Positions 1 to 35,981 of a stretch of 35,981 nucleotides of DNA are shown piece after piece (the first letter of the stretch is position 1; each line of letters starts with the position of its first letter). The translations under genes and the position numbers were made by a program. Origin of the DNA: a virus. The DNA is taken from the UHGV virus genome UHGV-0263263; one strand, given 5' to 3'. A model generated the notes under the pieces. That model was not told the DNA's origin. It ran no database searches and worked only from the letters and a program-made list of their open reading frames with translations.

Positions 1-607
1 ATTTTTTTTCTCTATGTTTAGCAAACATAACTGTAGATGCTAAAATCATAGGTATTATATAAATAAACATTGATATATTATCACTGAACAATGATAGGGC
101 GCTGATTATTGTAGCAATGATTAAGTTGACTATATTTTCTGTTGCATCGTATTTTTCAAGTAAAATTATTGACGCAAAAATGAAAGCATATGTCCCCATA
201 TGGATGCAAGCAGAAAGCATGGAAGTAACTGCCATATCAGCAGGAAAAACCACAAAAAATGTTAAGAGAGATATTGAAAGAAGCTTGTTTTTACTTAAGC
301 TAAACATTAGCCATATAATAACCACATATAGTATTGATGGTATTACAAAAGCCAATGATTTTGAGTACCCAACTATTAGTGAGGATAACGCATAAATCAC
401 AACCTCAGTAAAGTAAAAGGGCACCGTGGAAAGCTCCCACCCCCTTAACAATACATTTCCACCAGCCACCTCTTTTCCTAGCAGCAGGACTGTGGCCCCA
501 TCAGTTATAGTTGGGAAATTATTAAAACTAAGTGTGTAATATAGTTGGTATAATACACACGTTAATAAAACCGAGAACGGTATATATATTAAATATTTCT
601 TAAGCAT
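1..607 (-). CDS. gtrC: GtrC-family serotype-specific O-antigen glucosyltransferase, N-terminal 202 codons (polytopic membrane part); ORF runs off the window start
   Basis: Manual translation from ATG at 607 (4 nt overlap with gtrB stop) gives [28 protein letters not shown]..., very hydrophobic, with no stop down to nt 2. Low GC. Operon position downstream of gtrA-gtrB. Frame is continuous with minus ORF 35128..35981 if the sequence is circular. Confidence 0.6.
117..395 (+). other. Listed ORF that is antisense to gtrC; probably not a gene
   Basis: Lies fully inside the better-supported minus-strand gtrC reading frame. AT-rich region generates chance ORFs. Confidence 0.2.
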
Positions 608-1523
608 GTTTATCTCTTTTTAAAATGTACTTAGGGCGGTTTTTTACCTCAATATAAATCCTTCCGATATACTCTCCAAGAACACCGATCCCAATAAGTT
701 GAACGCCGCCTAGGAAGAGTACTGATACCAACAGAGAAGGATAACCGCGCACGGGATTACCAAATAAAAAAGTTCCAAGGATCATCCATGTTCCATAAAG
801 AAACGCTAATCCTGCAACTAACAGGCCGATATATGTCCATATACGAAGCGGGAATGTTGAGAAACTGGTTATTCCCTCGAGAGCCAGATTCCACAACTTC
901 CATCCGTTGAATTTTGTGCTACCAGCAACGCGTTCTGCGCGAGCATACTCAACGACATCGGTTATTCCTCCTACCCAACTCAATATACCTTTCATGAACA
1001 GGTTGCGCTCTGGCATGAGCTTGATGTTTTCGACTACTTCACGAGACATCAGTCGGAAATCGCCAACGTTCTCTTCAATCTGCGGATTACTGATTTTGTT
1101 ATGCAGCTTATAGAACCATTCAGCCGTCTTGCGCTTAAGCCTGCCATCTGTGGAGCGATCTGTTCTTTTAGCCAGAACCATATCCGCACCGGCAACCCAC
1201 TTATTGATAAGATGAGGAATTACCTCGATAGGGTCCTGCAGGTCCACGTCAATCGGTATAATCGCATCGCCGGTTGCATGGTCTAGCCCGGCGAATAGCG
1301 CAGGCTCTTTGCCGAAATTGCGCGTGAATGATAGCGGCTTGACGAGAGGGTCTGATATCGCAATTGAGTTTATGATCGCTTCCGTTGCGTCCTTGCTTCC
1401 GTCATTGATGAATACTATCTCTACTTCGTATTGCTGAAGGTCTTCAAACTCTCTGACGGTTTTGTAAAAAATTGGTATCGCGTCCTCTTCATTGAAGACT
1501 GGAACGACAAGAGAAATCTTCAT
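600..1523 (-). CDS. gtrB: Bactoprenol glucosyltransferase (GT2 family), GtrB
   Basis: 307 aa starting [13 protein letters not shown]...INDGSKD with DxD-type motifs and a C-terminal 2-TM anchor. Stop overlaps the gtrC start; start overlaps the gtrA stop. Confidence 0.9.
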
Positions 1524-1882
1524 TTTTCTTCCCTAAAGACAATGTGTTTTGAATAAAAGAACCCGCAAACCAGGCTTATCAGCGAGAATTCAACAAGGGT
1601 AATGATAGGTGCGATCTGATAATAATCAGACAATTTTCCTACCAAAACGCTCATAAGACCCATGAATGTAACAAAAAGAAAATACCCCTTGACATTAGGC
1701 CTTGACTTGAATGTAAAGGCGGCATTGGCAAAGAACGAGAACGTTACTGCAGTAGCGAATGCCAGCAGATTGGCCGTAGCCTGATTTACTGAGAACAAAT
1801 AGACACCTGTCGCAAATACGAGCCAGTGAATGGCTGTGTTTAAAACTCCGACAGTCAAATATTTTGAGAATAGCTTAAGCAT
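1520..1882 (-). CDS. gtrA: GtrA-family flippase for undecaprenyl-phosphate-glucose
   Basis: 120 aa with 4 TM segments, typical GtrA size and hydropathy. First gene of the gtrABC operon. Confidence 0.8.
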
Positions 1883-1990
1883 ATGAGTGGCTTGGTTGTT
1901 TTAGAATTTAGCTGAGTTTACCACCTAAGGCCCATCTGATCAGCACTTGCAGTACGGTACTTACTCCATGTAACTGCTCAAATACCATAT

Positions 1991-2006
1991 GGTCGGGATT
2001 CCGACC
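1991..2006 (+). promoter_or_regulatory. Late-element copy 1 (GGTCGGGATTCCGACC), 57 bp upstream of the holin start
   Basis: Exact 16-mer; forms a 6-bp stem with GATT loop. Followed by CGCCCGCTTACCC and TACTAT. Confidence 0.6.
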
Positions 2007-2062
2007 GGCTCGCCCGCTTACCCTCAGCCCACTACTATGATTTTCCCCACAGGGGGTGAGGC

Positions 2063-2299
2063 ATGAGGATGAATAACCTTTCAGACGTAGCGGCGGGACT
2101 GTCCTACGGTACATCTATCGGCAGCTTTGGTTACTGGTTACTGCAACTACTCGATAAAGTTAGCCCCAGCCAGTGGGCCGCCATCGGCGTTCTTGCCAGT
2201 ATTCTCTTTGGTCTGTTGACCTATCTGACCAATCTGTATTTCAAAATCAAGGATGATCGGCGTAAGGAGGCACGGGATAATGGCTTCCAGCAAGACTAA
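2063..2299 (+). CDS. Class II holin, phage 21 S21-like pinholin with dual start (M-R-M)
   Basis: 78 aa. Sequence [55 protein letters not shown] closely matches the remembered S21 sequence. Two TMDs. Two Met codons separated by an Arg codon, as in lambda S107/S105. Confidence 0.85.
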
Positions 2300-2819
2300 G
2301 CTCAGTGCTACTGTTCTGGGGCTGGTACTCGCTGGTGCACCAGCAACTGTCATTCTTGACCAGTTCCTGAACGAGAAAGAGGGAAACAGCCTAACCGCGT
2401 ACAGAGATGGTGGCGGAATCTGGACGATTTGCCGTGGTGCCACGATGGTTGATGGTAAGCCAGTGGTGCAGGGCATGAAGCTGACGCAGGCTAAATGCGA
2501 TCAGGTAAACGCCATCGAACGCAATAAGGCTCTTGCGTGGGTTGACCGCAATATCAAAGTTCCTCTGACCGAACCGCAGAAAGCCGGTATCGCATCCTTC
2601 TGTCCGTACAACATCGGACCCGGCAAATGCTTCCCGTCAACGTTCTATAAGCGAATGAATGCCGGTGACCGAAAAGGTGCATGTGAGGCGATCCGCTGGT
2701 GGATCAAAGACGGGGGCCGTGACTGTAGACTGACCAAAGGCCAGAAGAATGGCTGCTATGGTCAGGTTGAGCGCCGGGATCAGGAAAGCGCGTTAGCGTG
2801 CTGGGGGATAGACCAGTGA
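2280..2819 (+). CDS. SAR (signal-anchor-release) endolysin, T4-lysozyme fold
   Basis: AAGGAGG 9 nt before the ATG at 2280. N-terminal weakly hydrophobic SAR segment [18 protein letters not shown] followed by a lysozyme-like catalytic region. Pairs with the pinholin. Confidence 0.85.
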
Positions 2820-3178
2820 CGATAAAAGCAAAGCTGTTAGCGCTGGCCGTTCTGCTGGCGTTTTTTGTCGGTACCTTTTATGTAGGTTACCTCAAAGGGT
2901 GGTATGCGCACAGCGAGCACGTTAACAGCCAGGCAAAAGCGAAGCAGAAGAAAGCTGAGAAAGCCGTCGCCATCGGCGAGCAGAAAGCGGCGGCGGCCAG
3001 TGCAGAGGGTAAAGTGATTTACCGGACCATTTACCGAGACGTGGTGAAATATGTTAACGACCCGAATCATGTTAAGTGCGATTTTGACGATCACGCTGTG
3101 CAGCTGCGTCAGCGAGCCCTCGACGCGGCCAACTCCATCAGCGGATTTGATGCAGGAGCCGTGCAAGGGAGCGAGTAA
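2798..3178 (+). CDS. Rz-like inner-membrane spanin (i-spanin)
   Basis: N-terminal TMD (LLALAVLLAFFVGTFYVGYL) then a charged, coiled-coil-like periplasmic domain. GTG start overlaps the endolysin stop. Confidence 0.6.
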   Translation: MLGDRPVTIKAKLLALAVLLAFFVGTFYVGYLKGWYAHSEHVNSQAKAKQKKAEKAVAIGEQKAAAASAEGKVIYRTIYRDVVKYVNDPNHVKCDFDDHAVQLRQRALDAANSISGFDAGAVQGSE

Positions 3179-3293
3179 AGCTGGAACAGACAGCGACGAA
3201 GATCTGCAAGCAGACATCGAAACAGCGGAATGCCTGCGCCAGTTACGGCTGGATAAGTATCGTTGGCAAGCGTGGTACAGGGCTACGGAATAG
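3051..3293 (+). CDS. Rz1-like outer-membrane lipoprotein spanin (o-spanin), +1 frame overlapping Rz and extending past it
   Basis: MLSAILTITLCSC lipobox-like signal. Pro-rich mature part (PSTRPTPS). Position inside and after the Rz frame. Confidence 0.5.
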   Translation: MLTTRIMLSAILTITLCSCVSEPSTRPTPSADLMQEPCKGASKAGTDSDEDLQADIETAECLRQLRLDKYRWQAWYRATE

Positions 3294-3312: not shown

Positions 3313-3575
3313 GGGAGCGAAATTAAAACGGGTACCAATTCGGGTATCTGCCTTTTTTGTGAAAATAAAAAACAATAAATACAAATGGTTATTTATTGTG
3401 TTTTACTCCTATTATCGGCACCATCATTTCATCCAGTACCATCCCCAATCGTCCATTTTTCCTTGTTTTTCGCGGTGTTGACTGTTTTGTTTGTCCGCCG
3501 TTATCCACCTTTTACCGTTGCAATCCAAATTTAAAACGGGTACATAAACGGGTATCTGAGTTTGAGGCGGGTACC
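3313..3575. other. attP-like recombination site: arm-type direct repeats flanking a core inverted repeat
   Basis: TTAAAACGGGTAC-N5-CGGGTATCTG occurs at 3313-3340 and 3531-3558, plus GGCGGGTACC at 3566-3575. Between them is an AT-rich tract holding a perfect 10-bp inverted repeat, ACAATAAATA(3372-3381)/TATTTATTGT(3390-3399), with an 8-bp spacer. Lies directly upstream of int. Confidence 0.6.
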
Positions 3576-3576
3576 T

Positions 3577-4749
3577 ATGAAACTAAACGCACGACAGGTC
3601 GAGACGGCAAAGCCTGCCGAAAAAGACTACAAGCTGCCAGACGGTAACGGGCTTATTCTGCTGGTGAAAACCAGTGGGGCAAAATACTGGCGCTATCGCT
3701 ATACCTTCGCCGGTAAAGAAAAGATGCTGGCGCTCGGTGTGTACCCGGCTGTTTCGCTGGCGGCCGCTCGCGAAAAGCGAGACGAGGCCAGGCGGAACGT
3801 TGCAGCAGGTGTTGACCCGGTGAAGGTCAAAAGCCATGTTGCAGCTGCGGCAGCAAAGACGATCACGTTTAAAGAGATTGCCGCAGAATGGCACGAATTC
3901 AAGAAGCCGCGCTGGTCGCCTGGCTATGCCTCTGACATTCTCGAAGCGTTCAACAAAGATATTTTCCCAGCTGTGGGTAAGCTGCCAGTTGCTGAAATCG
4001 AACCGGTTCAGATGCTGGCGGCACTGCGCAAAATTGAGAATCGCGGCGCAACCGAGAAAGCAGCCAAAACGCGCCGGTGGTGCGGTGAAGTATTCAGCTA
4101 TGCAGTTGCGACCGGGCGCGCGAAGTATAACCCCGTCAGCGAACTGAACAGTGCCATGACCGGCCATAAGGGGGAGTCCTTTCCCTTCCTGACGGCTGAA
4201 GAACTGCCCGATTTTCTGGCGGCGCTTGAAGGTTACAAGGGGAGTCCGTTCCCCCGGTTGGGTTTGCAGATCATGATGCTGGCAGGGCTGCGTACTTACG
4301 AACTGCGGCATTCAAAATGGGAATGGGTAGATTTCGATAACCGGCTGTGGGAGATACCTGCCGAATTTATGAAGATGGACCGCCCGCACCTGGTACCGCT
4401 TTCCGATCAGCTTGTTGTATTGCTGAAAGAGTTGCACGGTCTGACAGGTCGATACGTGAATATGTTCCCCGGCAGGAATGACCCGTCAAAGGTAATGAGC
4501 GAGAACACAATAAACAGGATGATCCACACGCTGGGATATAAGGGGAGGGTAGTAGGGCATGGCTTCCGGCATACATTCAGCACCATCCTGAACGATAAAG
4601 GATTCAACTCAGACTGGGTTGAACTCCAGATCGCTCACGTGGATAAGAACAATATACGCGGGGTTTATAACCATGCCCTGTATATGGAAGGGCGTCGGGA
4701 GATGATGCAGTGGTATGCGGATCATATTGACCAGCTGCGTTTGATTTAA
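3577..4749 (+). CDS. int: Tyrosine integrase, P4-like family (DUF4102 N-terminal arm-binding domain plus catalytic domain)
   Basis: 390 aa. N-terminus MKLNARQVETAKPAEKDYKLPDGNGLILLVKTSGAKYWRYRY is typical of P4-type integrases. C-terminal R...HGFRHT...Y catalytic residues. Confidence 0.9.
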   Translation: MKLNARQVETAKPAEKDYKLPDGNGLILLVKTSGAKYWRYRYTFAGKEKMLALGVYPAVSLAAAREKRDEARRNVAAGVDPVKVKSHVAAAAAKTITFKEIAAEWHEFKKPRWSPGYASDILEAFNKDIFPAVGKLPVAEIEPVQMLAALRKIENRGATEKAAKTRRWCGEVFSYAVATGRAKYNPVSELNSAMTGHKGESFPFLTAEELPDFLAALEGYKGSPFPRLGLQIMMLAGLRTYELRHSKWEWVDFDNRLWEIPAEFMKMDRPHLVPLSDQLVVLLKELHGLTGRYVNMFPGRNDPSKVMSENTINRMIHTLGYKGRVVGHGFRHTFSTILNDKGFNSDWVELQIAHVDKNNIRGVYNHALYMEGRREMMQWYADHIDQLRLI

Positions 4750-4934
4750 AGAAACTGTTTTTTCCACTCTTCGACCTCGCCGCGTACCCAGCGGGAGGTT
4801 CGGCTCCCGAGCTTTTTAGGCTTCGGAAATTCGTTATTACTGATGCGCTCATAAATGCTGGATTTTTTCAGGCCAACAGAGCGCTCAACTTCTTTGATAT
4901 TAATCAGGTCAGTGTCAGAGATAACCTGTGTCAT
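4746..4934 (-). CDS. alpA: AlpA-family HTH transcriptional regulator / excisionase-like
   Basis: 62 aa (MTQVISDTDLINIKEVERSVGLKKSSIYERISNNEFPKPKKLGSRTSRWVRGEVEEWKK). GAGAGG SD. Start overlaps the upstream gene stop (ATGA). Convergent with int. Confidence 0.7.
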   Translation of the reverse strand: MTQVISDTDLINIKEVERSVGLKKSSIYERISNNEFPKPKKLGSRTSRWVRGEVEEWKKQFL

Positions 4935-6325
4935 GCTATACCTCTCTTTTTCATGGCATCGAGCAGGATGTCCTGCACCGTTCGTTTTGAGTTGCGCCGC
5001 TCCATCACCATTTCGTCCATAGTGTCGGCGGCGATAATGTGGTGAATGAACACCGGGCGGTTGTGTCCGGCCTGAATCTGCCGGGTTGGCCCGATGCGTT
5101 CGATAATTTGCTGGTACTGCTCCAGATCCCACCAGTGCGAGAAAAACACCAGAATGTTGCCGCCGTCCTGCATATTCAGGCCGTGGCCTGCGCTTGCCGG
5201 GTGCGCGAACAGGACCGGTATCTTTCCGGCGTTCCAGTCGCGCAGCGTCTGTGGATCCTGGTCGAGGTGGCGACCGCGAGGAAATGCTTTAAGCAGACGC
5301 TCAAGGTCGTGTTTCCAGTGGTAGGCCACCAGCACTGGTGCGCCAGCGGCTTCGGTGAGAATACTGTCCAGCGCCTGCAGCTTCGCGTCGTGCAGTTCGG
5401 ACCAGCTCCCTGCGTCGTCGGTGTATACCGCGCCGCTGGCAATTTGCAGACACTTCACTGTTTTTGCCGCGGCGTTCGGCGCTTCGATACCTTCGCCGTT
5501 CAGCTCGAGGAACATTTCTTTTTCCATTTCGCGATACTGCTGGCTGGCCTTCGGCGGCATGTCCACGCGGATCACGTTATGGATGGGCTCTTTGATATCG
5601 AACCAGTCGGCGGCGTCCAGGGAGATAGTCACGTCAGCCAGTGCACGCTGTATTTCGTCCTGCGAATGGGCGAACGGCTCCAGCTTCGTCCAGCTCTGCC
5701 CCGGAAACTGTATTGAGTTGAACCAGCGGGAAGTAAACGCGCCGTAGGTGCGCCCGAGGCGCTGCCCCTGATCCACAAACCACGCTTGCCCCCACAAATC
5801 TACCAGGCCGTTAGGCGCTGGCGTACCGGTGAGATTCATCCAGCGCCGGACGTGCTTATGTGCCACCTTGCCCAGCGCCGCCGCGCGCTTACCGCCACCG
5901 CGCAGCCGGAAGGATTTCAGCCGGGTGCTTTCGTCGGGAATGACGGTACCGAACGGCCAGCGGCCGCCAAGCTCTTCCACCAGCCAGACCAGATTGTCGT
6001 AGTTGATGGTAAACACGCTGGCGTTGCTGTTTGCCAGCGCCGCAGCGCGCGCTTTGGCATTACCGACAATCGGCTGCACCTCGATATTGCGCAGATGCCC
6101 CCATTTCACCGCTTCATCCGGCCAGGTACTGGCCGCCACGCGCAGCGGTGCGAGGACCAGCGCGGGCTGAGTCTCCGCTCCCGCCATAAAGAGATCTTCC
6201 AGCGTGGTGAGCGTCGCCACGGTTTTACCCATGCCCATGCCCGCCCAGATGTTGCAGCGCAGGATGTCGATTTCGTGGTTGATGATGAGGTCTTGATAAG
6301 GGCGGGGGGTAAATACTGAACTCAC
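4931..6325 (-). CDS. SNF2/DEAD-box family ATP-dependent helicase
   Basis: Walker A GMGMGKT, DEXH-like PDES, helicase C-terminal motifs. 464 aa. Confidence 0.8.
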   Translation of the reverse strand: MSSVFTPRPYQDLIINHEIDILRCNIWAGMGMGKTVATLTTLEDLFMAGAETQPALVLAPLRVAASTWPDEAVKWGHLRNIEVQPIVGNAKARAAALANSNASVFTINYDNLVWLVEELGGRWPFGTVIPDESTRLKSFRLRGGGKRAAALGKVAHKHVRRWMNLTGTPAPNGLVDLWGQAWFVDQGQRLGRTYGAFTSRWFNSIQFPGQSWTKLEPFAHSQDEIQRALADVTISLDAADWFDIKEPIHNVIRVDMPPKASQQYREMEKEMFLELNGEGIEAPNAAAKTVKCLQIASGAVYTDDAGSWSELHDAKLQALDSILTEAAGAPVLVAYHWKHDLERLLKAFPRGRHLDQDPQTLRDWNAGKIPVLFAHPASAGHGLNMQDGGNILVFFSHWWDLEQYQQIIERIGPTRQIQAGHNRPVFIHHIIAADTMDEMVMERRNSKRTVQDILLDAMKKRGIA

Positions 6326-6591
6326 AATATCCCCTCCAGATTTTTGCTATCCAGTACCACCACGGTAAAGCCCAGCGCGCGGAGCCGTTCGTGCTCGCGC
6401 AACTGGTCGGCGCGTGGTGGTTTGCCGGGTGCCTTGCATTCAACAAAGACGAGGCGGCCACCAGGTAGCAGGACAATGCGATCCGGTACCGAGCGGCGAC
6501 CGGGTGACACGAACTTAAAGGCGATCCCGCCAGCCTTTTTTACTTCGGTGACGAGGTGCTTTTCGATAAGGCTTTCACGTTCGTAGGCCAT
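6322..6591 (-). CDS. VRR-NUC domain nuclease
   Basis: 89 aa with the ...D...VECK... pattern characteristic of VRR-NUC. Translationally coupled to the SNF2 helicase. Confidence 0.7.
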   Translation of the reverse strand: MAYERESLIEKHLVTEVKKAGGIAFKFVSPGRRSVPDRIVLLPGGRLVFVECKAPGKPPRADQLREHERLRALGFTVVVLDSKNLEGIL

Positions 6592-6834
6592 TTACTTCAC
6601 CTGCTTTTCAGCCCTCAGTACCATCCGGCTACCATCATCAAGACCCCAGCTAATTTCGCCGCCTTCTGCCATTACCAGCTGCCAAACTAACTGCGCGGCT
6701 TCGTTCGTTACGTCACGCCCAGGGTCATTGCCAACACGCAAGCGACCGCCGTCAACATCGCGCATTTTTGCCAACATGATCTTTTTGGATAGCGGGGAGA
6801 ACCCCAGTTGTAGTTTCGCTGTATTACGCATCAT
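6592..6834 (-). CDS. Hypothetical protein
   Basis: ORF in operon context with coupled start/stop. No recognisable motif. Confidence 0.4.
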   Translation of the reverse strand: MMRNTAKLQLGFSPLSKKIMLAKMRDVDGGRLRVGNDPGRDVTNEAAQLVWQLVMAEGGEISWGLDDGSRMVLRAEKQVK

Positions 6835-7042
6835 TCACCTCCCTACGCTTTTCGCGCATGTTCTGCATCAGGCAAAAATCAGCACGGCGCTCGCTCCAGT
6901 CCTGATTAAGTTCGTTACGTGATTCGCGGTTGGCTTTGGCCCAGACTTTCGCCGCCCGGTCGTACTCGCCGGACTGCTCAAGGCGCAAAGCCTCCCGCGC
7001 AGTCCGGTAATAAAGCGGACTGTCCCGATATTTAAATGACAT
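6824..7042 (-). CDS. Hypothetical small protein (start at MSFKYRD with GAGGT SD)
   Basis: GAGGTAA 7 nt upstream of the ATG at 7042. The listed longer ORF (to 7069) would overlap the HNH gene. Confidence 0.4.
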   Translation of the reverse strand: MSFKYRDSPLYYRTAREALRLEQSGEYDRAAKVWAKANRESRNELNQDWSERRADFCLMQNMREKRREVNDA

Positions 7043-7052
7043 AGGGATTACC

Positions 7053-7532
7053 TCAGAGTGAGCTGGCAAACTCTCCTGCGTAAAGCTCCGCGCCTTTGGC
7101 GTAAGCCTCTGCTGCCTGCTCTTTTGTGGGGAAATACCCGAGGCTTTTAACTCGTCCTCGGATTACGATTTTTGCCTGCCACGGCTTTCGCGGGCAATTA
7201 GGGTGAAACACAACGCCTTTGAAACCGGATGTGTTGTGCCTACGCTTGGCAATGTTGTATTGATTCTGGGCGTTATTGCAGACTCTAAGATTTTCAATCC
7301 TGCAATCGCGCGGGTCGCGGTTTATGTGGTCCAGCATTGGCGGTATAACGCCGTGGTGGTAGAGCCAGACGAGTTGATGTAGGTAGTAGGTCTTTCTACC
7401 GATAGTAGTTGCCAGATACCGCTGATTCTTACCCGTACCGTGCCACGGGTAGGGCTTACGGCCGCCAACACGACGCAATAGCCCCGTCGGCGGTTCGTAG
7501 ACGAACAGCTCTTTAACTTCATCCTGTGTCAT
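7053..7532 (-). CDS. HNH endonuclease with AP2 DNA-binding domain (homing-endonuclease-like)
   Basis: HQLVWLYHHGVIPPMLDHINRDPRDCRIENLRVCNNAQN (HNH_3) followed by a FKGVVFHPN...WQAKI AP2-like segment. Confidence 0.8.
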   Translation of the reverse strand: MTQDEVKELFVYEPPTGLLRRVGGRKPYPWHGTGKNQRYLATTIGRKTYYLHQLVWLYHHGVIPPMLDHINRDPRDCRIENLRVCNNAQNQYNIAKRRHNTSGFKGVVFHPNCPRKPWQAKIVIRGRVKSLGYFPTKEQAAEAYAKGAELYAGEFASSL

Positions 7533-12462: not shown

Positions 12463-12608
12463 ACTGCGGTCCTCGCTACAAGGAGAATGAAGGTAATAGC
12501 CAGGCCGAACGCAGTAGCGAGGGCCAGACCGGTAAAGATGTCGAAATGTTTGCGGCGCCAGCGGAGCACGTCGCGCCCCGTCAGCCGGTGGAGGTGTTCA
12601 GGTTTCAT
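12459..12608 (-). CDS. Small membrane protein (49 aa), first gene of the leftward early operon
   Basis: GGAG SD and ATG at 12608 immediately after the terminator. C-terminal TM (LALATAFGLAITFILLV). Confidence 0.5.
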   Translation of the reverse strand: MKPEHLHRLTGRDVLRWRRKHFDIFTGLALATAFGLAITFILLVARTAV

Positions 12609-13007: not shown

Positions 13008-13029
13008 TGTGTTTAACGCTTTGATTTTA

Positions 13030-25094: not shown

Positions 25095-25096
25095 CC

Positions 25097-30696: not shown

Positions 30697-30733
30697 GTAG
30701 CAATATCCGGTAAAACAAAACACGGTGATAAAA

Positions 30734-31054
30734 ATGCGCAAACTTTCTTTTATGTTAACTGGGTTTATTCTGGCCTACTCAACTGTCGCGAGTGCTACGG
30801 TATTTGGTGGCTCGAATCTAGGCTTTAGTGGTTATCCTGAGTTTTCGGATTCGGAGCCGACACCTCCTTATGATCGCAATGAATATTCAATGCAAGCGTA
30901 TAAAAGTGAGGTTGAAAGGTATATCCAAAATGCGAAGGATTATACCGAAAACGCTGGTAACGATATGAAACGTATTCAGGAATCCCAGGACGATGCGATT
31001 CAAAAAGCAAACCGCGTTGTAGAGGAATATAACCAAACAGCAAGGGGGTATTAA
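30734..31054 (+). CDS. AT-rich moron: secreted/periplasmic small protein with Sec signal peptide
   Basis: MRKLSFMLTGFILAYSTVASA|TV signal peptide. Lower GC than its neighbours. Inserted between the core-protein and terminase genes. Confidence 0.55.
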   Translation: MRKLSFMLTGFILAYSTVASATVFGGSNLGFSGYPEFSDSEPTPPYDRNEYSMQAYKSEVERYIQNAKDYTENAGNDMKRIQESQDDAIQKANRVVEEYNQTARGY

Positions 31055-31056
31055 TC

Positions 31057-31072
31057 GGTCGGGATTCCGACC
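31057..31072 (+). promoter_or_regulatory. Late-element copy 4, 46 bp upstream of the terminase small subunit gene
   Basis: Exact 16-mer starting 3 nt after the moron stop codon. Confidence 0.6.
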
Positions 31073-31118
31073 TTAAACCCACGCCATCATAGCCCTGTAT
31101 TCACTACGGGGCTTTTTT

Positions 31119-31460
31119 ATGCATCAGGATTACAAAACACGCCTTACCGCACTGAGTGATAAACTCACCGATGTGGTGCTCGAAGAAGCCGATCCGGAAA
31201 ACTGGCCGGGGGCGGGAAAGAAACCGAGCGAACTGACCAAGGATGAACGTGGCGATCGCTACTGGGATAAGAAGAACGCAGCCGCATCCCTGACGCTGCT
31301 GATTAAGGTTCACTCCCTGATTGGCATGCAAACGCGCGGCGGTACGCCATCCGATAATCCCGGTCAGGATGATGAAGCCTTTGCGCTGGGCAAGCAGGTT
31401 TCAAAAGCTGAGCGAGAGGCGGCCGCCATTATTGAGCGCCTGCAGAAAGGGAAAAAATGA
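31119..31460 (+). CDS. Terminase small subunit (candidate)
   Basis: 113 aa, charged. Directly upstream of, and overlapping, the large terminase gene. No SD; preceded by a hairpin plus T6. Confidence 0.45.
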   Translation: MHQDYKTRLTALSDKLTDVVLEEADPENWPGAGKKPSELTKDERGDRYWDKKNAAASLTLLIKVHSLIGMQTRGGTPSDNPGQDDEAFALGKQVSKAEREAAAIIERLQKGKK

Positions 31461-33067
31461 TTTCGTTCCTCGCCTTCTTCTTAATGTGGGCGGAGCGAAT
31501 GAACTGGGACGTTCCGGACTGCCACTATCAGGCCTGCCACTGGCTGGAGCATCGCGGAAATCTCGCGGTGCTTCGCTGTTTCCGTGGTTTCGGTAAATCA
31601 ACGATCCTCGCTGTCTATAACGCCTGGCGGTATTACTGTGATCGCCAGTACCGCATTCTGCATCAGTCTGAATCAGACGGAACCGCGTATAAAACCAGCC
31701 GTGACACTCAGAACGTCCTGCGTAACCATCCGCTGACCAAAGGCATGCTTCCTGACGGGCAGGGAACCGTTGAGCAATGGTGGGTTAATGGTGCGCTGGA
31801 TTTACGTAACGGCAGCATGTACGCAAAAGGCATCCTGTCTAACGTAACCTCAGCGCGCGCCAACGAATGCCAGAACGACGACGTAGAGGTACCACGTAAT
31901 ATCCAGACTCCGGAGGCACGCGAAAAGCTGCGCTATCGCCTGGGAGAGCAAACCCACATCCTGATCCCCGGCGGACGCAAACTTTATATCGGTACACCGC
32001 ACACGCATGACAGCCTTTATGATGAGGTGGAGTCTATGGGCGCCGACTGTCTTACCATCCGGTTATTTGATAAAGAAAAGCGCATTGAAGCGAAAGAGGC
32101 CTCGCAGCTGCGCTACGCAGTGCCTTTTCGCCCGGATTATGTTTTTGCTGGCATCCACAAGGCGGCGCGGCTGTTGGTCGAAAACGTGGATTATAAGCTG
32201 ACCGCCGACGGCGTTGAGTTTGCGGACGCACCGGACACGGTTATCGATTTTTATGCAGACTGCGCCTGGCCTGAACGGTTCACCCGTGAAGAAATGGAGA
32301 ACCGCCGTAAAGAAACCCGCACGATTAACGAGTGGGATAGCCAGTATCAGCTGCACAGTAAACCCGTCGGAGACGTTCGCCTCGACCCTGACCGCATCCG
32401 GGAATACAACATTCATCCACAAATTCGCTATGCGAACCGTACGGCTTCGCTGTGGCTGGGTAACGTGCAAATCGTTGGTGCTGTTGCCTGGTGGGACGTG
32501 GCCACTGGCAAGGTTAAAGCTGACGCCTCTGCATTCTCTCTGATGCTTACGGATGCCAGGGGGCATTTGTACTGGCATATCTGCCAGGAGCTTACCGGGG
32601 AGCTGGCAGAGTTCGACGATAACGACAAAATCGCCGGCGGGCAGGTAGCGCAGATCAGAGAGCTGGTGCTCAAATATCAGATCCCCGTGGTTTGTGTCGA
32701 AGTAAACGGCCCGGGCAGCTTCGCGGGTAAATTACTGCGTCAGGCGCTCAAGGGGACGGGCTGCGGCGTCCGGGAAGAGTTCAGTATCACCAACAAGCAG
32801 AAACGCATCCTCGATGCGTTTGAAGCGCCGCTGTCCTCGCGGTTCCTGTGGGCTCACACCGACGTGCTCGACGGTCCTGTCTATGACCAGATGCGCGACT
32901 TTAACCCCGCACTGACCAACCAGACAGACGACTTTATCGACTCCGGCGCGGGAGCAATAAGTCAGACCCCAGTACGCATCGGGAAAGTGGTCGGGATTCC
33001 GACCGGACATACGCGCGAAGATTGGCAGTTAAGTGACGGAGATCATCTGGTCGACGTCGATTACTAA
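31457..33067 (+). CDS. Terminase large subunit (T7 gp19-like)
   Basis: 536 aa. Walker A-like FRGFGKST. C-terminal nuclease-like acidic residues. Synteny. Confidence 0.8.
   Translation: MISFLAFFLMWAERMNWDVPDCHYQACHWLEHRGNLAVLRCFRGFGKSTILAVYNAWRYYCDRQYRILHQSESDGTAYKTSRDTQNVLRNHPLTKGMLPDGQGTVEQWWVNGALDLRNGSMYAKGILSNVTSARANECQNDDVEVPRNIQTPEAREKLRYRLGEQTHILIPGGRKLYIGTPHTHDSLYDEVESMGADCLTIRLFDKEKRIEAKEASQLRYAVPFRPDYVFAGIHKAARLLVENVDYKLTADGVEFADAPDTVIDFYADCAWPERFTREEMENRRKETRTINEWDSQYQLHSKPVGDVRLDPDRIREYNIHPQIRYANRTASLWLGNVQIVGAVAWWDVATGKVKADASAFSLMLTDARGHLYWHICQELTGELAEFDDNDKIAGGQVAQIRELVLKYQIPVVCVEVNGPGSFAGKLLRQALKGTGCGVREEFSITNKQKRILDAFEAPLSSRFLWAHTDVLDGPVYDQMRDFNPALTNQTDDFIDSGAGAISQTPVRIGKVVGIPTGHTREDWQLSDGDHLVDVDY
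32989..33004 (+). promoter_or_regulatory. Late-element copy 5, inside the terL 3' end, 84 bp upstream of the tailspike gene
   Basis: Exact 16-mer. Encodes VVGIPTG within TerL. Confidence 0.5.
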
Positions 33068-33087: not shown

Positions 33088-34782
33088 ATGTCGGTACCGA
33101 ACCAGACTCCATATATAATTTATAACGCCAACGGCCTGACCACCGTTTTTCCCTTCGAGTTCTATATCATCAACTCCGGTGATATTCAGGTCACAATTAA
33201 CGGCACCGTTATTACTAGCGGGTACACGGTGTCCGGGGTAGGGAATATCGGCGGCGGGGATGTGATTTTTATCACCCCGCCAGCCAGCGGATCGGTTGTG
33301 ATGCTGGAGAGGGTAGTGCCAATGTACAGGCTGACCGATTATCAGGATAACGGTGACCTCCTGGCCGACACGGTTAATAAGGATTTTGACCGCCTCTGGA
33401 TGGCGATACAGCGTTACGGTATACATCTCGGTCTGGCACTTCGCCGCCCGCTGTTCGGTGGTCCCTTTGATGCAGAGGGTTATCGTATTGAGAAACTGGC
33501 AGATCCGGTAAATGCGCAGGACGCAGTGACTAAAAAGTATTTAGAAAGCGTATCGTTAGCCCGGGTGCTTCGCGTTCCAGAGGCATCAGTTGGGTTAGTA
33601 CCTTCGCTGGATCTGCGTCGCAATAAACTGCTGGCATTCAATAATTCAGGTGACCCTATTCCGGTGTTGCCAGAATCAGGGTCTGCCTCTGATGTGATGA
33701 TAGAACTGGCGAAGCCCACAGGATCTTCACATATCGGATATCAGTATCCTGCGGATGGCAGTGTGCCAAGAACGGTAGAAGATAAACTTGGAGATTTCGT
33801 TAGTGTGCTGGACTTTGGCGCAAAAGGCGATGGCGTAACAGATGACTCTATAGCCTTTCGAGATGCCATTGCTACTGGAAAAACGGTGTATGTCCCTGAT
33901 ACATCAGGTAACAACTTGGGGTGTGTTTATAAAGTAAGCGGTATTGATGTAACAACTATTAAACTTGTTGGAGAGTCTCAGCGCGTCGAAATACAACCAG
34001 TATCAACGGCAACACGAATATTAAACTTAAAAGGTACATCCCCAGCATCACCGGCAAGAGGATGTTTTATACGAAATATTACGTTTTCTTCCCCAGCAAC
34101 TTCTGAAGGTCTCTTTCATGATGCTGTGCTTTTGGAGAACACAAACCAGTGCGACGTATCAAACGTCACTCTATACCTAGTTCAGTTGACAGTGCTCGGG
34201 CATAATTACCTACGGCTTGATAAAATTAATGGTATAGGAGCGAGGTTATCTGTTTCAAGGCACAGCGGAGATAGCATTGACAATGCAGTAGGGTTATTAC
34301 TTAAAGACTCGTTTTTAGCCTACAACAGCGAAGTTGACATAAGGAATAGTACAGACACAAGAATAGTTGATACATATATCGCAAACAGCAAAAGTGACGG
34401 TAGAACAGGACTAAATCACGATTATGACGCTGAGTTTTTGCCAGGAGGTTCAGTATTCTTTGGCGGTGTCTTGATGATTACAAACGTAATTTGCGAATGC
34501 GTGTGCGTAATCAAATATACAGCACTATCTAAGTTTACAGGATTCTGGGCTGGCGCCTTTTATGGTAACGGACTGACGTTACTTAACTCATACGGCTTAC
34601 TTGCAACAAACTGTACTTTTCACTACAGCACAGGCGCGGGTGTTTATGCCAGAAATCTTACAGATTGCACATTTGTTTCAAGCAGTTTTACCAACTCAGA
34701 GGGCGGAGGGTTTGATCTTGATGAATCAGTAAGAACAACATTTGTAGCTTGCACCTTCAGCAAATTTGAACTTTACGAATAA
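33088..34782 (+). CDS. Tailspike/tail fibre: T7 gp17-like N-terminal tail-attachment domain plus right-handed beta-helix (pectate-lyase-like) receptor-binding/depolymerase domain
   Basis: N-terminal ~200 aa resemble the conserved gp17 adaptor domain. VLDFGAKGDGVTDDS motif. Repeated x-C-T-F beta-helix rungs. GC drops sharply after about nt 33720. Ends at a TAA that is in frame with the next ORF. Confidence 0.8.
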   Translation: MSVPNQTPYIIYNANGLTTVFPFEFYIINSGDIQVTINGTVITSGYTVSGVGNIGGGDVIFITPPASGSVVMLERVVPMYRLTDYQDNGDLLADTVNKDFDRLWMAIQRYGIHLGLALRRPLFGGPFDAEGYRIEKLADPVNAQDAVTKKYLESVSLARVLRVPEASVGLVPSLDLRRNKLLAFNNSGDPIPVLPESGSASDVMIELAKPTGSSHIGYQYPADGSVPRTVEDKLGDFVSVLDFGAKGDGVTDDSIAFRDAIATGKTVYVPDTSGNNLGCVYKVSGIDVTTIKLVGESQRVEIQPVSTATRILNLKGTSPASPARGCFIRNITFSSPATSEGLFHDAVLLENTNQCDVSNVTLYLVQLTVLGHNYLRLDKINGIGARLSVSRHSGDSIDNAVGLLLKDSFLAYNSEVDIRNSTDTRIVDTYIANSKSDGRTGLNHDYDAEFLPGGSVFFGGVLMITNVICECVCVIKYTALSKFTGFWAGAFYGNGLTLLNSYGLLATNCTFHYSTGAGVYARNLTDCTFVSSSFTNSEGGGFDLDESVRTTFVACTFSKFELYE

Positions 34783-34794
34783 AGGAGTTTTAGG

Positions 34795-35094
34795 ATGGCA
34801 TCGTTAAATCAAGCATATGGACTGAACTGCGGGAGTAATAGCAGCCATACTAAGATCATAGGGTGTAACTTTACAGGTAATACCAGCGATAAAAACATAA
34901 TTGGGGTAGGAAGTTACAAAACATGGTTCTGCACCGGGGTTCCTGACACATTGCTGTCAAATTATGGTAGCACCGCAGAAAGACCATCTAGCCCACCACC
35001 AGGATTTGAATTCTTTGACACTCAAATTGGATTGCCTATATTTTGGAATCCAGTTACTAACCATTGGATAAGGGCGGACGGAGTTGATGTATAA
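34795..35094 (+). CDS. C-terminal tailspike segment or separate small tail protein (same frame as the tailspike, separated by a single TAA)
   Basis: Own AAGGAG SD. Continues the beta-helix-like rungs (IIGCNFTGNTSDKNIIGVG). Low GC. Confidence 0.5.
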   Translation: MASLNQAYGLNCGSNSSHTKIIGCNFTGNTSDKNIIGVGSYKTWFCTGVPDTLLSNYGSTAERPSSPPPGFEFFDTQIGLPIFWNPVTNHWIRADGVDV

Positions 35095-35097
35095 GCA

Positions 35098-35119
35098 AAT
35101 GGCGGCATTTGCCGCCATT
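35098..35119. terminator. Hairpin between the convergent tailspike and gtrC genes (possible bidirectional terminator)
   Basis: AATGGCGGC-attt-GCCGCCATT in an AT-rich context. No clean U-tract. Confidence 0.4.
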
Positions 35120-35127
35120 AAATATCA

Positions 35128-35981
35128 TCATTCTATATTTATATTCTTATCATATGTTAAAATGAAGACATTACAAACATATTCTATTGAATGGGGAGTT
35201 CCAAACTCGGTTTTTACTATGTTAACCTGAGTATCGTCAGGTAATATAAAAAAATTGTTTCCTTTGTTGTACCATTCATTGTTTGTAAGCCATCTATCTC
35301 TTACAACCTTACCATTTTCAAACTTAATGTTAGCAATTTTTAAAGTTGAGTCTATGCCGACTGAGTTTGTATAGTCAAAGGTGGCATACCCAAACTCCCC
35401 GCCACTTTGTTTTATCTTTTCGCTTATGCAAGCAAACTGATCGTGCTTCTCATTTGATTCTTGTATGTTTATTGTTGAAACTCCAGATGCCATTCCAGCA
35501 AAAAATACGGAAAGAAGTATATATTTATTTTCATATTTTTCTCTTGATACAAAAATTACTAGCATTAAATATACAGGCACAAGGTATCTAATAGTCCAAA
35601 TATTTCTAGGTAGGTTGCTTCCGACATATGCCGCCAACATAAGCACAATTGAAGAAATTATCAGTATATCAGTGAATGATAAACATCTAAATCTTAATGC
35701 CCTTTTAGCGGCAAAATAGATAAGAGCAAGGAAACCTAAAAACCTAGAAAATATAGAAAATGTGTCATAGGATAACTTTAATGGCTGCCCAAATATGTTG
35801 GCATTAAAGAATAGTAATGTACCCTGTATGGCTGTATTTATGTTGTTTGATATGTTCTCATACGTCACCACCCTTATGTCGTTTATTCCAGGTAAGTGGA
35901 ACCCGTTTTGCACTGAAAATCCATATTTAATAAGTTTTGATATCAAAATTGATACCACAGCACTAAATGCTAGCGTTAAAT
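35128..35981 (-). CDS. gtrC: GtrC-family glucosyltransferase, C-terminal part (last TM segments plus periplasmic domain); open to the window end
   Basis: No in-frame stop between the listed GTG (35958) and the window end. Frame and composition are continuous with the minus ORF at 1..607. Joining the two gives a 486-aa polytopic protein with a C-terminal soluble domain. Confidence 0.55.
   Translation of the reverse strand, partial: LTLAFSAVVSILISKLIKYGFSVQNGFHLPGINDIRVVTYENISNNINTAIQGTLLFFNANIFGQPLKLSYDTFSIFSRFLGFLALIYFAAKRALRFRCLSFTDILIISSIVLMLAAYVGSNLPRNIWTIRYLVPVYLMLVIFVSREKYENKYILLSVFFAGMASGVSTINIQESNEKHDQFACISEKIKQSGGEFGYATFDYTNSVGIDSTLKIANIKFENGKVVRDRWLTNNEWYNKGNNFFILPDDTQVNIVKTEFGTPHSIEYVCNVFILTYDKNINIE

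What the first reader, a model, noticed from the sequence alone, without database searches (positions are those of the whole stretch)
1..35981. Unusual modular hybrid: T7-like replication and virion genes under lambdoid/P4-like temperate control
The portal, scaffold, capsid, gp11/12, core proteins, gp6.7-like protein, family-A polymerase and gp2.5-like SSB are T7-type. There is no single-subunit RNA polymerase. Lysogeny is run by a CI/Cro switch, a P4-family integrase plus AlpA, a prim-pol primase with iterons, and boxA/terminator control. The lysis cassette is a P21-type pinholin and SAR endolysin, placed next to attP and away from the head genes. This is a coherent temperate T7-like lineage, not a decayed prophage.
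Basis: partly seen in the sequence, partly recalled or inferred. Interest (0 to 1): 0.55.

Follow-up and report, generated by a model that had tools for sequence, protein, structure and literature searches.

The report
Temperate T7-like-virion phage of Enterobacter
The window is the complete circular genome of an intact temperate short-tailed phage of Enterobacter hormaechei, and it belongs to a very common, already sampled but unnamed group of prophages, so it is coherent and real but not unusual.

Summary
The window is one complete 35,981-bp circular phage genome. Joining its ends restores a gtrC-like gene, and an identical circular contig and integrated copies exist in public assemblies. 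It integrates at tRNA-Thr thrW of Enterobacter hormaechei through a P4-family integrase plus AlpA/Vis.

It has a T7-type virion module, no phage RNA polymerase, a CI/Cro switch, a Prim-Pol/VapE primase with an adjacent iteron origin, a perfect boxA followed by a terminator, and a P21-type pinholin/SAR-endolysin/Rz-Rz1 cassette beside attP.

Two points fail. The replication genes are not T7-like. They form the Enc34/Nazgul-type cassette, and an E. coli myovirus carries the same cassette at 82% DNA identity. The 'gp6.7-like' protein could not be verified.

The combination is not rare. Yersinia phages YeP4-6 (induced podoviruses) have the same architecture. Alcaligenes phage Piluca and E. coli dusA prophages share the virion module and layout. 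The portal has over 2,000 protein clusters and prophage relatives in at least 72 bacterial species. Across these, the virion block with a small upstream HTH regulator is constant, while replication, immunity and integration modules swap.

Verdict: a new member of a known, unclassified kind, of modest interest.

The parts
35128..35981 (-). gtrC-like polytopic membrane protein, C-terminal part. The ORF continues across the circular junction into 1-607.
   Evidence: Joining the window end to its start gives one 486-aa ORF. A 486-aa gene is called at this place in the circular contig L004. GC is 37-42%. There is no Pfam hit.
1..607 (-). gtrC-like gene, N-terminal part
600..1523 (-). gtrB bactoprenol glucosyltransferase
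   Evidence: PF00535, E 9e-32. 77% nucleotide identity to the gtr genes of phage HF4s.
1520..1882 (-). gtrA flippase
   Evidence: PF04138, E 5.6e-14.
2069..2299 (+). S21-type pinholin
   Evidence: PF04971, E 4e-33. Two TMDs in the sequence.
2280..2819 (+). SAR endolysin
   Evidence: PF00959. The N-terminus has K-rich residues followed by the Gly/Ala-rich [22 protein letters not shown], and the E-8-D-5-T triad is present.
2816..3293 (+). Rz (2816-3178) with overlapping Rz1 lipoprotein candidate (3051-3293)
   Evidence: PHROG 2536, E 2e-45. The +1 frame holds an ORF with a lipobox-like ...TLCSC... and a Pro-rich region.
3323..3558 (.). attP. Arm-type direct repeats at 3323-3350 and 3531-3558, with the core ACTCCTATTATCGGCACCA at 3405-3423.
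   Evidence: The core equals the 3' end of tRNA-Thr(CGU). attL identity starts at 3405 and attR identity ends at 3424.
3577..4749 (+). P4-family tyrosine integrase
   Evidence: Arm-DNA-bind_3 + Phage_int_M + Phage_integrase. 39% identity to P4 Int, E 4e-102.
4746..4934 (-). AlpA/Vis-type excision/regulatory protein, last gene of the leftward operon
   Evidence: PF05930, E 6.6e-14. 36% identity to P4 Vis.
4931..6591 (-). SNF2 helicase (4931-6325) and VRR-NUC-like nuclease (6322-6591)
   Evidence: PF00176. PHROG 93 endonuclease, E 1e-30.
6592..7532 (-). DUF7446 protein, ANR-family small regulator (6824-7069) and HNH endonuclease (7053-7532)
7536..9596 (-). Family-A DNA polymerase, not T7-type
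   Evidence: PF00476. Best PDB matches are bacterial Pol I. Against T7 gp5, E 0.16.
9674..10222 (-). DUF2815/Enc34-type SSB (structural class of T7 gp2.5)
   Evidence: PF10991, E 3e-44. PDB 5odj and 4jg2. PMC5686142.
10238..11539 (-). DUF2800 PD-(D/E)XK nuclease
   Evidence: PF10926, E 1e-109.
11542..12608 (-). orf306 (11542-12462) and orf49 (12459-12608), the first genes of the leftward operon; function unknown
   Evidence: PHROG 6784 and 11981. Conserved in the E. coli B379 prophage and in phage 606R2.
12620..12975 (-). Leftward early control region. It holds the PL-like promoter with operator-like repeats (12896-12975), boxA CGCTCTTTAACAA (12876-12888), a roughly 230-nt leader, and an intrinsic terminator (12646-12620).
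   Evidence: boxA is invariant in 7 diverged relatives. There is no N-like ORF.
12990..13707 (-). cI repressor (13030-13707) and its terminator (13008-12990)
   Evidence: HTH + Peptidase_S24. Terminator.
13708..14049 (+). OR-like operator/promoter region and cro (13849-14049)
   Evidence: Repeats complementary to the left operator region. HTH_3.
14053..16221 (+). Prim-Pol + VapE (SF3 helicase-type) primase/initiator
   Evidence: PF05272, E 3e-59. PF09250, E 1.3e-10. PDB 7pds.
16219..16397 (.). Origin-like iteron array around an AT-rich centre (16314-16357)
   Evidence: 7 copies against 1.1 expected. The same layout occurs in relatives, with an iteron sequence that differs between the four relatives compared.
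16532..16807 (+). HTH91, an XRE/C-protein-like small regulator conserved upstream of the virion operon; candidate late regulator
   Evidence: Present in most of the 72 related loci. AF2 pLDDT 88, with an XRE-type fold.
16816..17084 (+). Terminator-like hairpin (16816-16867), a conserved promoter-like block CATTATGTTAAAT (16979-16991) and a 5' leader hairpin
17085..17747 (+). orf139 and orf76.
   Evidence: PHROG 17476 and 9015. orf76 against gp6.7, E 0.52.
17751..19376 (+). Portal, T7 gp8 family
   Evidence: PF12236, E 3.4e-120. PDB: Carin-1 8ck0 at 1.4e-53 and T7 6r21 at 2.7e-8.
19373..20429 (+). Bbp19-like protein (19373-19606) and scaffold-position protein (19593-20429)
   Evidence: PF25181. 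PHROG 3742. The scaffold role is inferred from position.
20567..21559 (+). Major capsid protein
   Evidence: PF19821, E 7e-68. 82% identity to YeP5 and about 30% to HTVC010P-type pelagiphages.
21617..24173 (+). gp11-like adaptor (21617-22180) and gp12-like nozzle (22182-24173)
   Evidence: PHROG 394 and 376. PF25675. PDB 8ck1.
24175..24624 (+). GNAT acetyltransferase at the position of T7 gp13
   Evidence: PF00583. Conserved across the lineage.
24627..30696 (+). Internal/ejection proteins: gp14-like (24627-25094), SLT-domain protein (25097-27805) and gp16-like (27805-30696)
   Evidence: PHROG 418, 1044 and 342. PF01464.
30725..31113 (+). orf109, a secreted-protein-like moron with its own terminator
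   Evidence: Sequence. Terminator. Absent in B379 and YeP4.
31119..33067 (+). TerS candidate (31119-31460) and T7-type TerL (31457-33067)
   Evidence: TerL against T7 gp19, E 2e-21. PF22530.
33088..35094 (+). Tail fibre/tailspike (T7 gp17 N-terminal domain plus beta-helix) and orf99
   Evidence: PF03906, E 9e-13, with PF12708 and PF13229.

Best explanation
The window is the complete, circularly closed genome of a functional temperate podophage of Enterobacter hormaechei.

**How it most likely works** (steps marked inferred were not shown here)
- In the lysogen it sits at the 3' end of tRNA-Thr thrW. It is inserted there by a P4-family integrase acting on an attP that lies just upstream of int.
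- A CI repressor with an S24 self-cleavage domain holds two divergent early promoters off (inferred).
- After SOS-type induction (inferred), host RNA polymerase reads rightwards through cro and the Prim-Pol/VapE initiator. That initiator fires the adjacent iteron origin (inferred).
- Host RNA polymerase also reads leftwards, through a boxA-containing leader and a terminator, into an Enc34/Nazgul-type replication cassette that ends with AlpA/Vis.
- There is no phage RNA polymerase. The roughly 18-kb late operon is therefore read by host polymerase. It covers the T7-type portal, capsid, adaptor, nozzle, internal proteins, terminase and tail fibre, and then the pinholin, SAR endolysin and spanins.
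- The late operon is probably switched by the small XRE-type regulator encoded just upstream (inferred).
- A low-GC gtrABC cassette modifies the host O-antigen in lysogens (inferred from family membership).

**Evolutionary placement**
It is one member of a large, unclassified lineage defined by the virion module. The early, replication and integration modules are exchanged with other phage types.
For: **One closed replicon**
- A junction-spanning gtrC ORF forms when the ends are joined.
- The window is 100% identical to ENA contig NODE_12_length_36036 across the junction.

**Integrated copies**
- attL lies at thrW downstream of proBA, and attR lies after Rz.
- The host is named by exact-match proteins.

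**Gene content**
-.
- No RNAP.

**Regulatory and replication elements**
- P4 Int and Vis homology.
- Iteron origin, with an iteron sequence that differs between the four relatives compared.
- boxA invariant in diverged relatives and followed by a terminator.
- HTH91 is syntenic with the portal in most of the 72 species loci and has an XRE fold.
- A conserved promoter-like block lies 174 nt downstream of HTH91.

**Relatives**
- YeP4 has the same architecture at 43-82% amino-acid identity and was induced as a podovirus (PMC6548840).
- Piluca has the same virion module, with CI/Cro and an integrase (PMC9022569).
- The E. coli B379 dusA prophage is 88-99% identical in its virion and replication proteins, but has a different integrase and CI.
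- Myovirus 606R2 shares the early module.
Against: - No experiment on this phage exists here. Induction, virion morphology, promoter use and the roles of HTH91, boxA and GNAT are all inferred.
- HTH91 matches known regulators only weakly (Foldseek E about 0.03), and PHROGs labels its family 'repressor'.
- The leader RNA shows no significant structure (z = -1.3), and no antiterminator protein was found, so the way boxA acts is open.
- The capsid, gp11 and gp12 have no pairwise-detectable similarity to T7. 'T7-type' rests on profiles and gene order.
Confidence: 0.88

Rival explanations
1. One reading: a rare hybrid that bridges T7-like (Autographiviridae) replication and virion genes with lambdoid/P4-like control.
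For: T7-family portal, TerL and tail-fibre N-terminus, and T7 gene order from portal to gp16. CI/Cro and P4 Int/Vis. A T7-class SSB fold (PMC5686142).
Against: - The replication genes are not T7-like. A myovirus and Nazgul-like siphoviruses carry the same cassette (PMC5686142).
- The combination is common: 72 species-level loci and over 2,000 portal clusters.
- Sequenced, induced or isolated relatives exist.
Confidence: 0.07
2. Two elements side by side: a P4-like satellite or island (int, AlpA, primase with iterons, CI/Cro) next to a podophage remnant.
For: P4-type int and Vis, and a primase with an adjacent iteron origin, resemble satellite replicons.
Against: - There is a single attL/attR pair around the whole 36 kb, and a single circular contig.
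- There are no host genes inside.
- The same contiguous layout is packaged in induced YeP4 virions (PMC6548840).
- The primase is not homologous to P4 alpha.
Confidence: 0.02
3. A decayed, non-inducible prophage that assembles as a circle only through an assembly artefact.
For: Some genome copies show split TerL or gtrC genes (L082 and L084). The attR core copy differs by one base.
Against: - All 41 genes are intact in the window.
- Identical copies occur in four independent samples.
- The 36,036-bp contig equals 35,981 bp plus a 55-bp overlap, and many relatives also assemble as contigs of about 36 kb.
- Close relatives are inducible.
Confidence: 0.03

Closest known systems
Yersinia phages YeP4/YeP5/YeP6 (MK733262-4; Liang et al. 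2019, PMC6548840)
   Same: - Same circular gene order: tail fibre, lysis genes, attP/int, SNF2, PolA, DUF2815, DUF2800, CI, cro, primase, portal through to TerL.
- 43-82% amino-acid identity for 28 of the 41 proteins.
- Same iteron sequence and the same boxA.
- Mitomycin-induced podoviruses.
   Different: - No gtrABC, orf109 or HNH, and no detectable homologue of the window's P21-type holin or Rz.
- The internal proteins at the gp15/16 positions are different.
- The integrase is only 43% identical.
- The receptor-binding part of the tail fibre differs.
E. coli dusA-integrated prophages (e.g. strain B379, NZ_CP090456)
   Same: Virion and replication proteins are 88-99% identical, with about 90% DNA identity over 84% of window 11000-35981.
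   Different: - A DusA-type integrase on the other strand, and a PrtN-family protein instead of AlpA.
- CI only 26% identical, so a different immunity.
- The iteron is TAGACCACCT.
- An acyltransferase moron replaces gtrABC.
Alcaligenes phage Piluca (MZ326864; PMC9022569) and E. coli phage vB_EcoM_APEC (MT664721)
   Same: - Same virion module, including the GNAT gene (annotated in Piluca), with capsid identity of 41-47%.
- In Piluca: CI/Cro, a tyrosine integrase, an AlpA-like gene, and a SAR endolysin at the end of the late operon.
   Different: - Replication and recombination genes are lambda-like (Bet/Exo, DnaA/DnaB-like or O/helicase) instead of the PolA cassette.
- No integrase is annotated in vB_EcoM_APEC.
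Phage T7 / Autographivirales, including temperate members (Boeckman et al. 2022; LUZ100, PMC10134795)
   Same: - Portal, TerL and the N-terminus of the tail fibre are homologous.
- The order portal, scaffold, capsid, gp11, gp12, internal proteins is shared.
- The SSB belongs to the gp2.5 structural class.
- An identical boxA lies downstream of the early host promoters (T7 positions 813-824).
   Different: - No single-subunit RNAP, no gp4 primase-helicase and no gp5-type polymerase.
- Three divergent transcription units instead of one direction.
- CI/Cro instead of the MarR-type control reported for temperate T7-likes.
Enc34/BcepNazgul-type replication cassette, and E. coli myovirus vB_EcoM-606R2 (ON470579)
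   Same: - The cassette is DUF2800 nuclease, DUF2815 SSB, PolA, VRR-NUC, SNF2 helicase and VapE primase, with CI/cro.
- 82% DNA identity with 606R2 over 4931-12990.
- The origin layout is the same.
   Different: Those phages have siphovirus or myovirus virion modules, and 606R2 has a Q antiterminator.
Solved structures: Cobetia phage Carin-1 (8ck0/8ck1) and the Legionella temperate phage LME-1 (9efk)
   Same: These are the closest solved portal, nozzle and adaptor structures. Sequence E-values are 1.4e-53, 4.8e-105 and 6.8e-11 for Carin-1, and 3e-16 (portal) and 4.8e-12 (nozzle) for LME-1.
   Different: Different hosts. The rest of their genomes was not compared here.

Membership tests
Autographivirales / Autographiviridae (T7-like in the strict sense) | Phage-encoded single-subunit RNA polymerase | tested here: not met
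   No Pfam or PHROG hit on any ORF, and all ORFs over 400 aa are otherwise assigned. T7 gp1 tblastn gives only chance hits, E >= 0.56. None of the 72 related loci has one.
Autographivirales / Autographiviridae (T7-like in the strict sense) | All genes on one strand in a single left-to-right programme | tested here: not met
   There is a leftward operon (12608 down to 4746), a rightward early plus late operon (13849 to 35094, then 2069 to 3293), and an inverted gtr cluster.
T7-type head-tail (morphogenesis) module | gp8-family portal, gp11 adaptor, gp12 nozzle, internal core proteins, gp19-type TerL and the gp17 N-terminal domain, in T7 order | tested here: met
   PF12236, E 3.4e-120. PF25675 at 33 bits. 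PF03906, E 9e-13. TerL against gp19, E 2e-21. PHROG 418 and 342 internal virion proteins. The tail fibre lies after the terminase rather than before it.
T7-type head-tail (morphogenesis) module | Major capsid protein homologous to T7 gp10 | tested here: inconclusive
   Pairwise E 0.7. No PDB sequence hit. The family is PF19821, and the nearest phages are the HTVC010P, VP2 and Liberibacter types.
P4-family integrase system | Arm-binding (DUF4102) + central + catalytic domains, with homology to P4 Int | tested here: met
   39% identity over the full length, E 4e-102.
P4-family integrase system | attP next to int, with arm repeats and a core identical to the 3' end of a tRNA gene | tested here: met
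   The core at 3405-3423 equals the 3' end of thrW. Arm repeats at 3323-3350 and 3531-3558. attL and attR were mapped.
P4-family integrase system | AlpA/Vis-type partner | tested here: met
   PF05930, E 6.6e-14. 36% identity to P4 Vis. An excision role was not tested.
Lambdoid phages | CI (HTH + S24) and divergent Cro, with operators on both sides of cI | tested here: met
   Complementary operator-like repeats at 12896-12975 and 13741-13807. Binding is not testable here.
Lambdoid phages | N- and Q-type antiterminator proteins; lambda-type O/P replication | tested here: not met
   No N-like ORF in the boxA leader. No Q hit. Replication is by Prim-Pol/VapE plus PolA.
P21-type pinholin / SAR endolysin lysis | S21-family holin with two TMDs; endolysin with an N-terminal SAR domain and the E-8-D-5-T triad; spanins | tested here: met
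   PF04971, E 4e-33. Sequence features. PHROG 2536 Rz. Membrane behaviour is not testable here.
Enc34/Nazgul-type replication cassette | DUF2815 SSB + DUF2800 nuclease + PolA + VRR-NUC + SNF2 helicase | tested here: met
   PMC5686142 describes the cassette.
Prim-Pol/VapE iteron replicon | AEP Prim-Pol domain fused to a VapE/SF3 helicase domain, with a cognate iteron origin adjacent | tested here: met
   PF09250 and PF05272. 7 iterons against 1.1 expected. The iteron sequence differs between the four relatives compared while the layout is kept. Origin firing is not testable here.
gtrABC serotype-conversion cassette | GtrA flippase, GtrB glucosyltransferase and a serotype-specific GtrC | tested here: inconclusive
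   GtrA and GtrB are met. The third gene is a 486-aa polytopic protein in the expected position, but it has no family hit.

The most novel reading that the evidence does not exclude
This phage and its thousands of prophage relatives could form an unnamed, family-level clade: the RNA-polymerase-less temperate sister group of the T7 order.

Three mechanistic features would come with that reading:
- The whole virion operon would be switched on through host RNA polymerase by one conserved XRE-type regulator (HTH91), acting at a conserved promoter.
- The replication operon would be gated by an N-independent, rrn-type boxA upstream of a terminator.
- A conserved GNAT acetyltransferase would occupy the gp13 slot as a virion or ejected protein.

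If so, the clade would be a living model for how the T7 lineage looked before it acquired its own polymerase.
Probability: 0.3. Interest if true: 0.5.

Novelty: new member of a known kind. Interest (0 to 1): 0.27.

Why it matters
**Practical**
- It gives a clean, complete reference for a prophage type that is very common in Enterobacter, Klebsiella, Raoultella, Serratia, Yersinia and E. coli but has no taxonomic home.
- It carries O-antigen-modifying genes that can change serotype and phage susceptibility in a clinically important host.

**Conceptual**
- The lineage shows that the T7-type virion module circulates widely in temperate, host-polymerase-dependent phages with freely exchanged early modules.
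- That bears on current ideas that T7-like phages descend from temperate ancestors.
- None of this is surprising to a phage genomicist.

Tried and rejected
- **mEpimmI phages.** The Nus-dependent non-lambdoid mEpimmI phages (PMC11893012) looked relevant to boxA, but they are siphoviruses of another group.
- **Rfam.** A scan of the whole window found nothing at gathering thresholds.
- **Leader RNA.** Folding the boxA leader gave no significant structure, z = -1.3. No N-like ORF was found there.
- **Promoter and terminator scans.** The sigma-70 and terminator scans were near chance overall. Only individually conserved sites were used.
- **Wrong ORF for AlpA.** The ORF at 4604-4852(-), initially taken for AlpA, has no family hit and a junk-like sequence. 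The real AlpA is in another frame.
- **Portal model.** The AlphaFold model of the portal was poor, pLDDT 44. Its Foldseek scores are not used; only the entry titles are.
- **Literature look-ups.** Searches for CP020525 and 8CK0/8CK1 found nothing useful.
- **Primase versus P4 alpha.** No homology was found, so 'P4-like' applies only to int and Vis.
- **gp6.7.** No statistical support.

Full report
**What the window is.** The 35,981-bp window is a closed phage genome. Its two ends are low in GC (37-42%, against 55-60% elsewhere). When the end is joined to the start, a single 486-codon ORF for a polytopic membrane protein forms on the minus strand, directly downstream of gtrB and gtrA. An ENA contig named NODE_12_length_36036 (35,981 bp plus a 55-bp assembler overlap) is 100% identical across this junction. 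The same sequence also occurs integrated. In several assemblies identity begins exactly at window position 3405, inside tRNA-Thr(CGU), downstream of nqrF-nqrM-dinB-pepD-gpt-frsA-crl-phoE-proB-proA. In closed chromosomes such as CP102612.1 identity ends at 3424, after Rz. The attP core is therefore ACTCCTATTATCGGCACCA (3405-3423), the 3' end of thrW. It is flanked by two 28-bp arm-type repeats at 3323-3350 and 3531-3558. Exact-sequence look-ups name the integrase and the flanking ProA as Enterobacter hormaechei proteins. There is one att pair, no host gene inside, and one replicon.

**Checking the gene calls.**
- Lysis: a P21-family holin (E 4e-33); a lysozyme whose N-terminus is a typical SAR domain with the E-8-D-5-T triad; Rz with an overlapping Rz1 candidate.
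- Integration: an integrase with the arm, central and catalytic domains, 39% identical to P4 Int. A 62-aa AlpA/Vis protein lies at 4746-4934(-), not in the 4604-4852 ORF, which is spurious.
- Leftward operon: SNF2 helicase, VRR-NUC-like nuclease, an ANR-family small protein, an HNH endonuclease, a family-A polymerase, a DUF2815/Enc34 SSB and a DUF2800 nuclease.
- Immunity: CI with HTH and S24 domains, and a divergent Cro.
- Replication initiator: a 722-aa protein with an N-terminal Prim-Pol domain and a VapE domain.
- Rightward virion block: a gp8-family portal, a Bbp19-like protein, a scaffold-position protein, the capsid, a gp11-like adaptor, a gp12-like nozzle, a GNAT acetyltransferase, gp14-like, SLT-containing and gp16-like internal proteins, TerS/TerL and a tail fibre with the T7 gp17 N-terminal domain.
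- No ORF resembles a single-subunit RNA polymerase.

**How 'T7-like' it is.** Against T7 itself, only three proteins match clearly in pairwise comparison: the portal (E 4e-12), TerL (2e-21) and the HNH endonuclease. The gp15-, gp16- and gp17-position proteins match weakly. The capsid, gp11, gp12, PolA and SSB do not match. The virion module is thus T7-type at profile and gene-order level, not a close relative. Its nearest capsids are YeP4-6 (82%), Acinetobacter and Alcaligenes temperate podophages (47-53%), an E. coli phage (41%), HTVC010P-type pelagiphages (about 30%), and Liberibacter, Ralstonia and Vibrio VP2-type phages. The nearest solved portal, nozzle and adaptor are those of Cobetia phage Carin-1, then the Legionella temperate phage LME-1, then T7 (entry titles). 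The polymerase matches bacterial Pol I better than T7 gp5. No gp6.7 homologue could be shown. orf76 shares only position, size and an N-terminal 'MC' with gp6.7.

**The replication and control region is a separate, mobile module.** The block from orf49 to SNF2, together with CI-cro-primase, is 82% identical in DNA to E. coli phage vB_EcoM-606R2. That phage has baseplate and tail-fibre genes and a Q antiterminator. About 200 E. coli genomes carry this block, but only three carry it together with the podovirus virion module. PMC5686142 describes the same cassette in 'Nazgul-like' siphoviruses.

I then took the portal as a marker in one genome per bacterial species, which gave 72 loci. They come from Enterobacter, Pluralibacter, Trabulsiella, Raoultella, Serratia, Pectobacterium, Symbiopectobacterium, Pantoea, Pseudomonas, Stenotrophomonas, Burkholderia, Cupriavidus, Acinetobacter and others. 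In these loci the block HTH91, (orf76), portal, Bbp19, scaffold, capsid, gp11, gp12, GNAT, gp14 is nearly always present. The PolA/DUF2815/DUF2800/primase genes are present in only six loci. None has a T7 RNAP, and a few have a gp4-like helicase instead. Piluca and vB_EcoM_APEC combine the same virion module with lambda-like recombination and replication genes. A wider protein search found 2,289 portal clusters at E <= 1e-10. Many are from Klebsiella, Raoultella and Serratia, and several sit on contigs of about 36 kb. So the lineage is defined by its virion module, its early modules are exchanged, and the combination in the window is ordinary phage mosaicism.

**Control elements.**
TAGACAACCT occurs seven times (0-1 mismatch) and only within 16219-16396. 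The copies run in both orientations around an AT-rich centre, immediately after the primase stop codon (chance expectation 1.1). The same layout follows the primase in YeP4 (same iteron), in E. coli B379 (TAGACCACCT) and in myovirus 606R2 (AGGTGACGG). A layout that is kept while the iteron sequence changes between relatives is what an initiator and its cognate origin would give.
- *boxA.* The boxA is also real. The single perfect CGCTCTTTAACAA lies at 12876-12888(-). It sits just downstream of a TTGACC-18-TATAAA promoter-like site embedded in operator-like repeats, and about 230 nt upstream of a strong intrinsic terminator that immediately precedes the first gene of the leftward operon. The 13-mer is the only invariant block in an alignment of this region from seven diverged relatives, including B379, whose CI is only 26% identical. 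T7 has the same 12-mer after its early host promoters. No N-like ORF, Rfam family or significant RNA structure was found in the leader. How the terminator is passed is therefore unresolved. Nus-factor-dependent antitermination is the best guess.
- *Late control.* A 91-aa protein (HTH91) lies between the origin and the virion genes and is conserved at that place in most of the 72 loci. Its model (pLDDT 88) has an XRE/controller-protein-like fold, with weak matches to C.BclI, CapH and P22 c2. After it come a terminator-like hairpin and, exactly 174 nt past the stop codon in seven relatives, the conserved block CATTATGTTAAAT. I infer a host-polymerase late promoter under HTH91 control. This is not shown.

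**Comparison with what is known, and novelty.** Temperate T7-like phages are an established topic, but the described ones keep the RNAP and use MarR-type control (PMC10134795, citing Boeckman et al. 2022). RNAP-less relatives of the present kind are in GenBank. YeP4-6 were induced from Y. enterocolitica O:9 and seen as podoviruses (PMC6548840). Piluca was described as a podophage with T7- and epsilon15-like tail proteins, CI/Cro, an integrase and a SAR endolysin (PMC9022569). Both remain 'unclassified Caudoviricetes'. The window is therefore a new member of a known but unnamed kind. It fails the defining test for Autographivirales, because it has no RNAP and no single transcription direction. 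It also fails membership of the lambdoid phages, because it has no N, Q or O/P, although it works like them at the immunity switch. Interest is modest. What remains open is the late-gene switch, the boxA mechanism and the conserved GNAT, plus formal taxonomy.

Noticed in passing
window 35128-35981 + 1-1882 (minus strand): A low-GC gtrA-gtrB-gtrC-like O-antigen glucosylation cassette lies between the tail fibre and the lysis genes and runs across the window ends. It is absent from YeP4. In the E. coli B379 prophage an acyltransferase takes its place.
   Followed up: partly
window 24175-24624 (+); also L008-L079: A GNAT acetyltransferase sits between the nozzle and the gp14-like protein, in the slot of T7 gp13. 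It is conserved in most of the 72 related loci (25-93% identity) and annotated in Piluca. It may be a virion or ejected enzyme; its function is unknown.
   Followed up: partly
window 16532-16807 (+) and 16979-16991: A small XRE-type HTH protein is conserved immediately upstream of the virion operon in most of the related loci. A CATTATGTTAAAT block lies exactly 174 nt after its stop codon in seven relatives. This is a candidate late switch that would stand in for the T7 RNAP.
   Followed up: partly
window 12640-12875 (minus strand): The leader between boxA and the terminator is almost identical in the window, E. coli B379 and Trabulsiella, and partly conserved in YeP4 (CCTGGCAAAACGAAAT). It holds three GGTAAGC(G/C) repeats. 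It has no ORF, no Rfam hit and no significant fold.
   Followed up: partly
window 6824-7069 (-): An ANR (AraC-negative-regulator) family small protein (NF033650, E 1.9e-20) is encoded inside the replication operon.
   Followed up: no
window 7053-7532 (-): An HNH endonuclease lies next to PolA. It is 29% identical to T7 gp3.8 and absent from B379 and YeP4. It is probably a mobile insertion.
   Followed up: no
window 30725-31113 (+): orf109 has a signal-peptide-like N-terminus and its own terminator, between the gp16-like gene and TerS. It is absent in B379 and YeP4 and is probably a moron.
   Followed up: no
L080 (T7) 813-824: T7 carries the identical GCTCTTTAACAA boxA downstream of its A1-A3 host promoters, mirroring its placement after the early promoter here.
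   Followed up: no
L081 11130-11150 (CP102612.1 attR): The attR copy of the core lacks one G (ATCGCACCA against ATCGGCACCA in attP and attL). This is either a real difference in the displaced tRNA end or a sequencing error.
   Followed up: no
L082 and L084 (BRHC01000001.1, BRHQ01000001.1): Some chromosomal copies show split TerL and gtrC genes. These are either decaying prophage copies or long-read assembly frameshifts.
   Followed up: no
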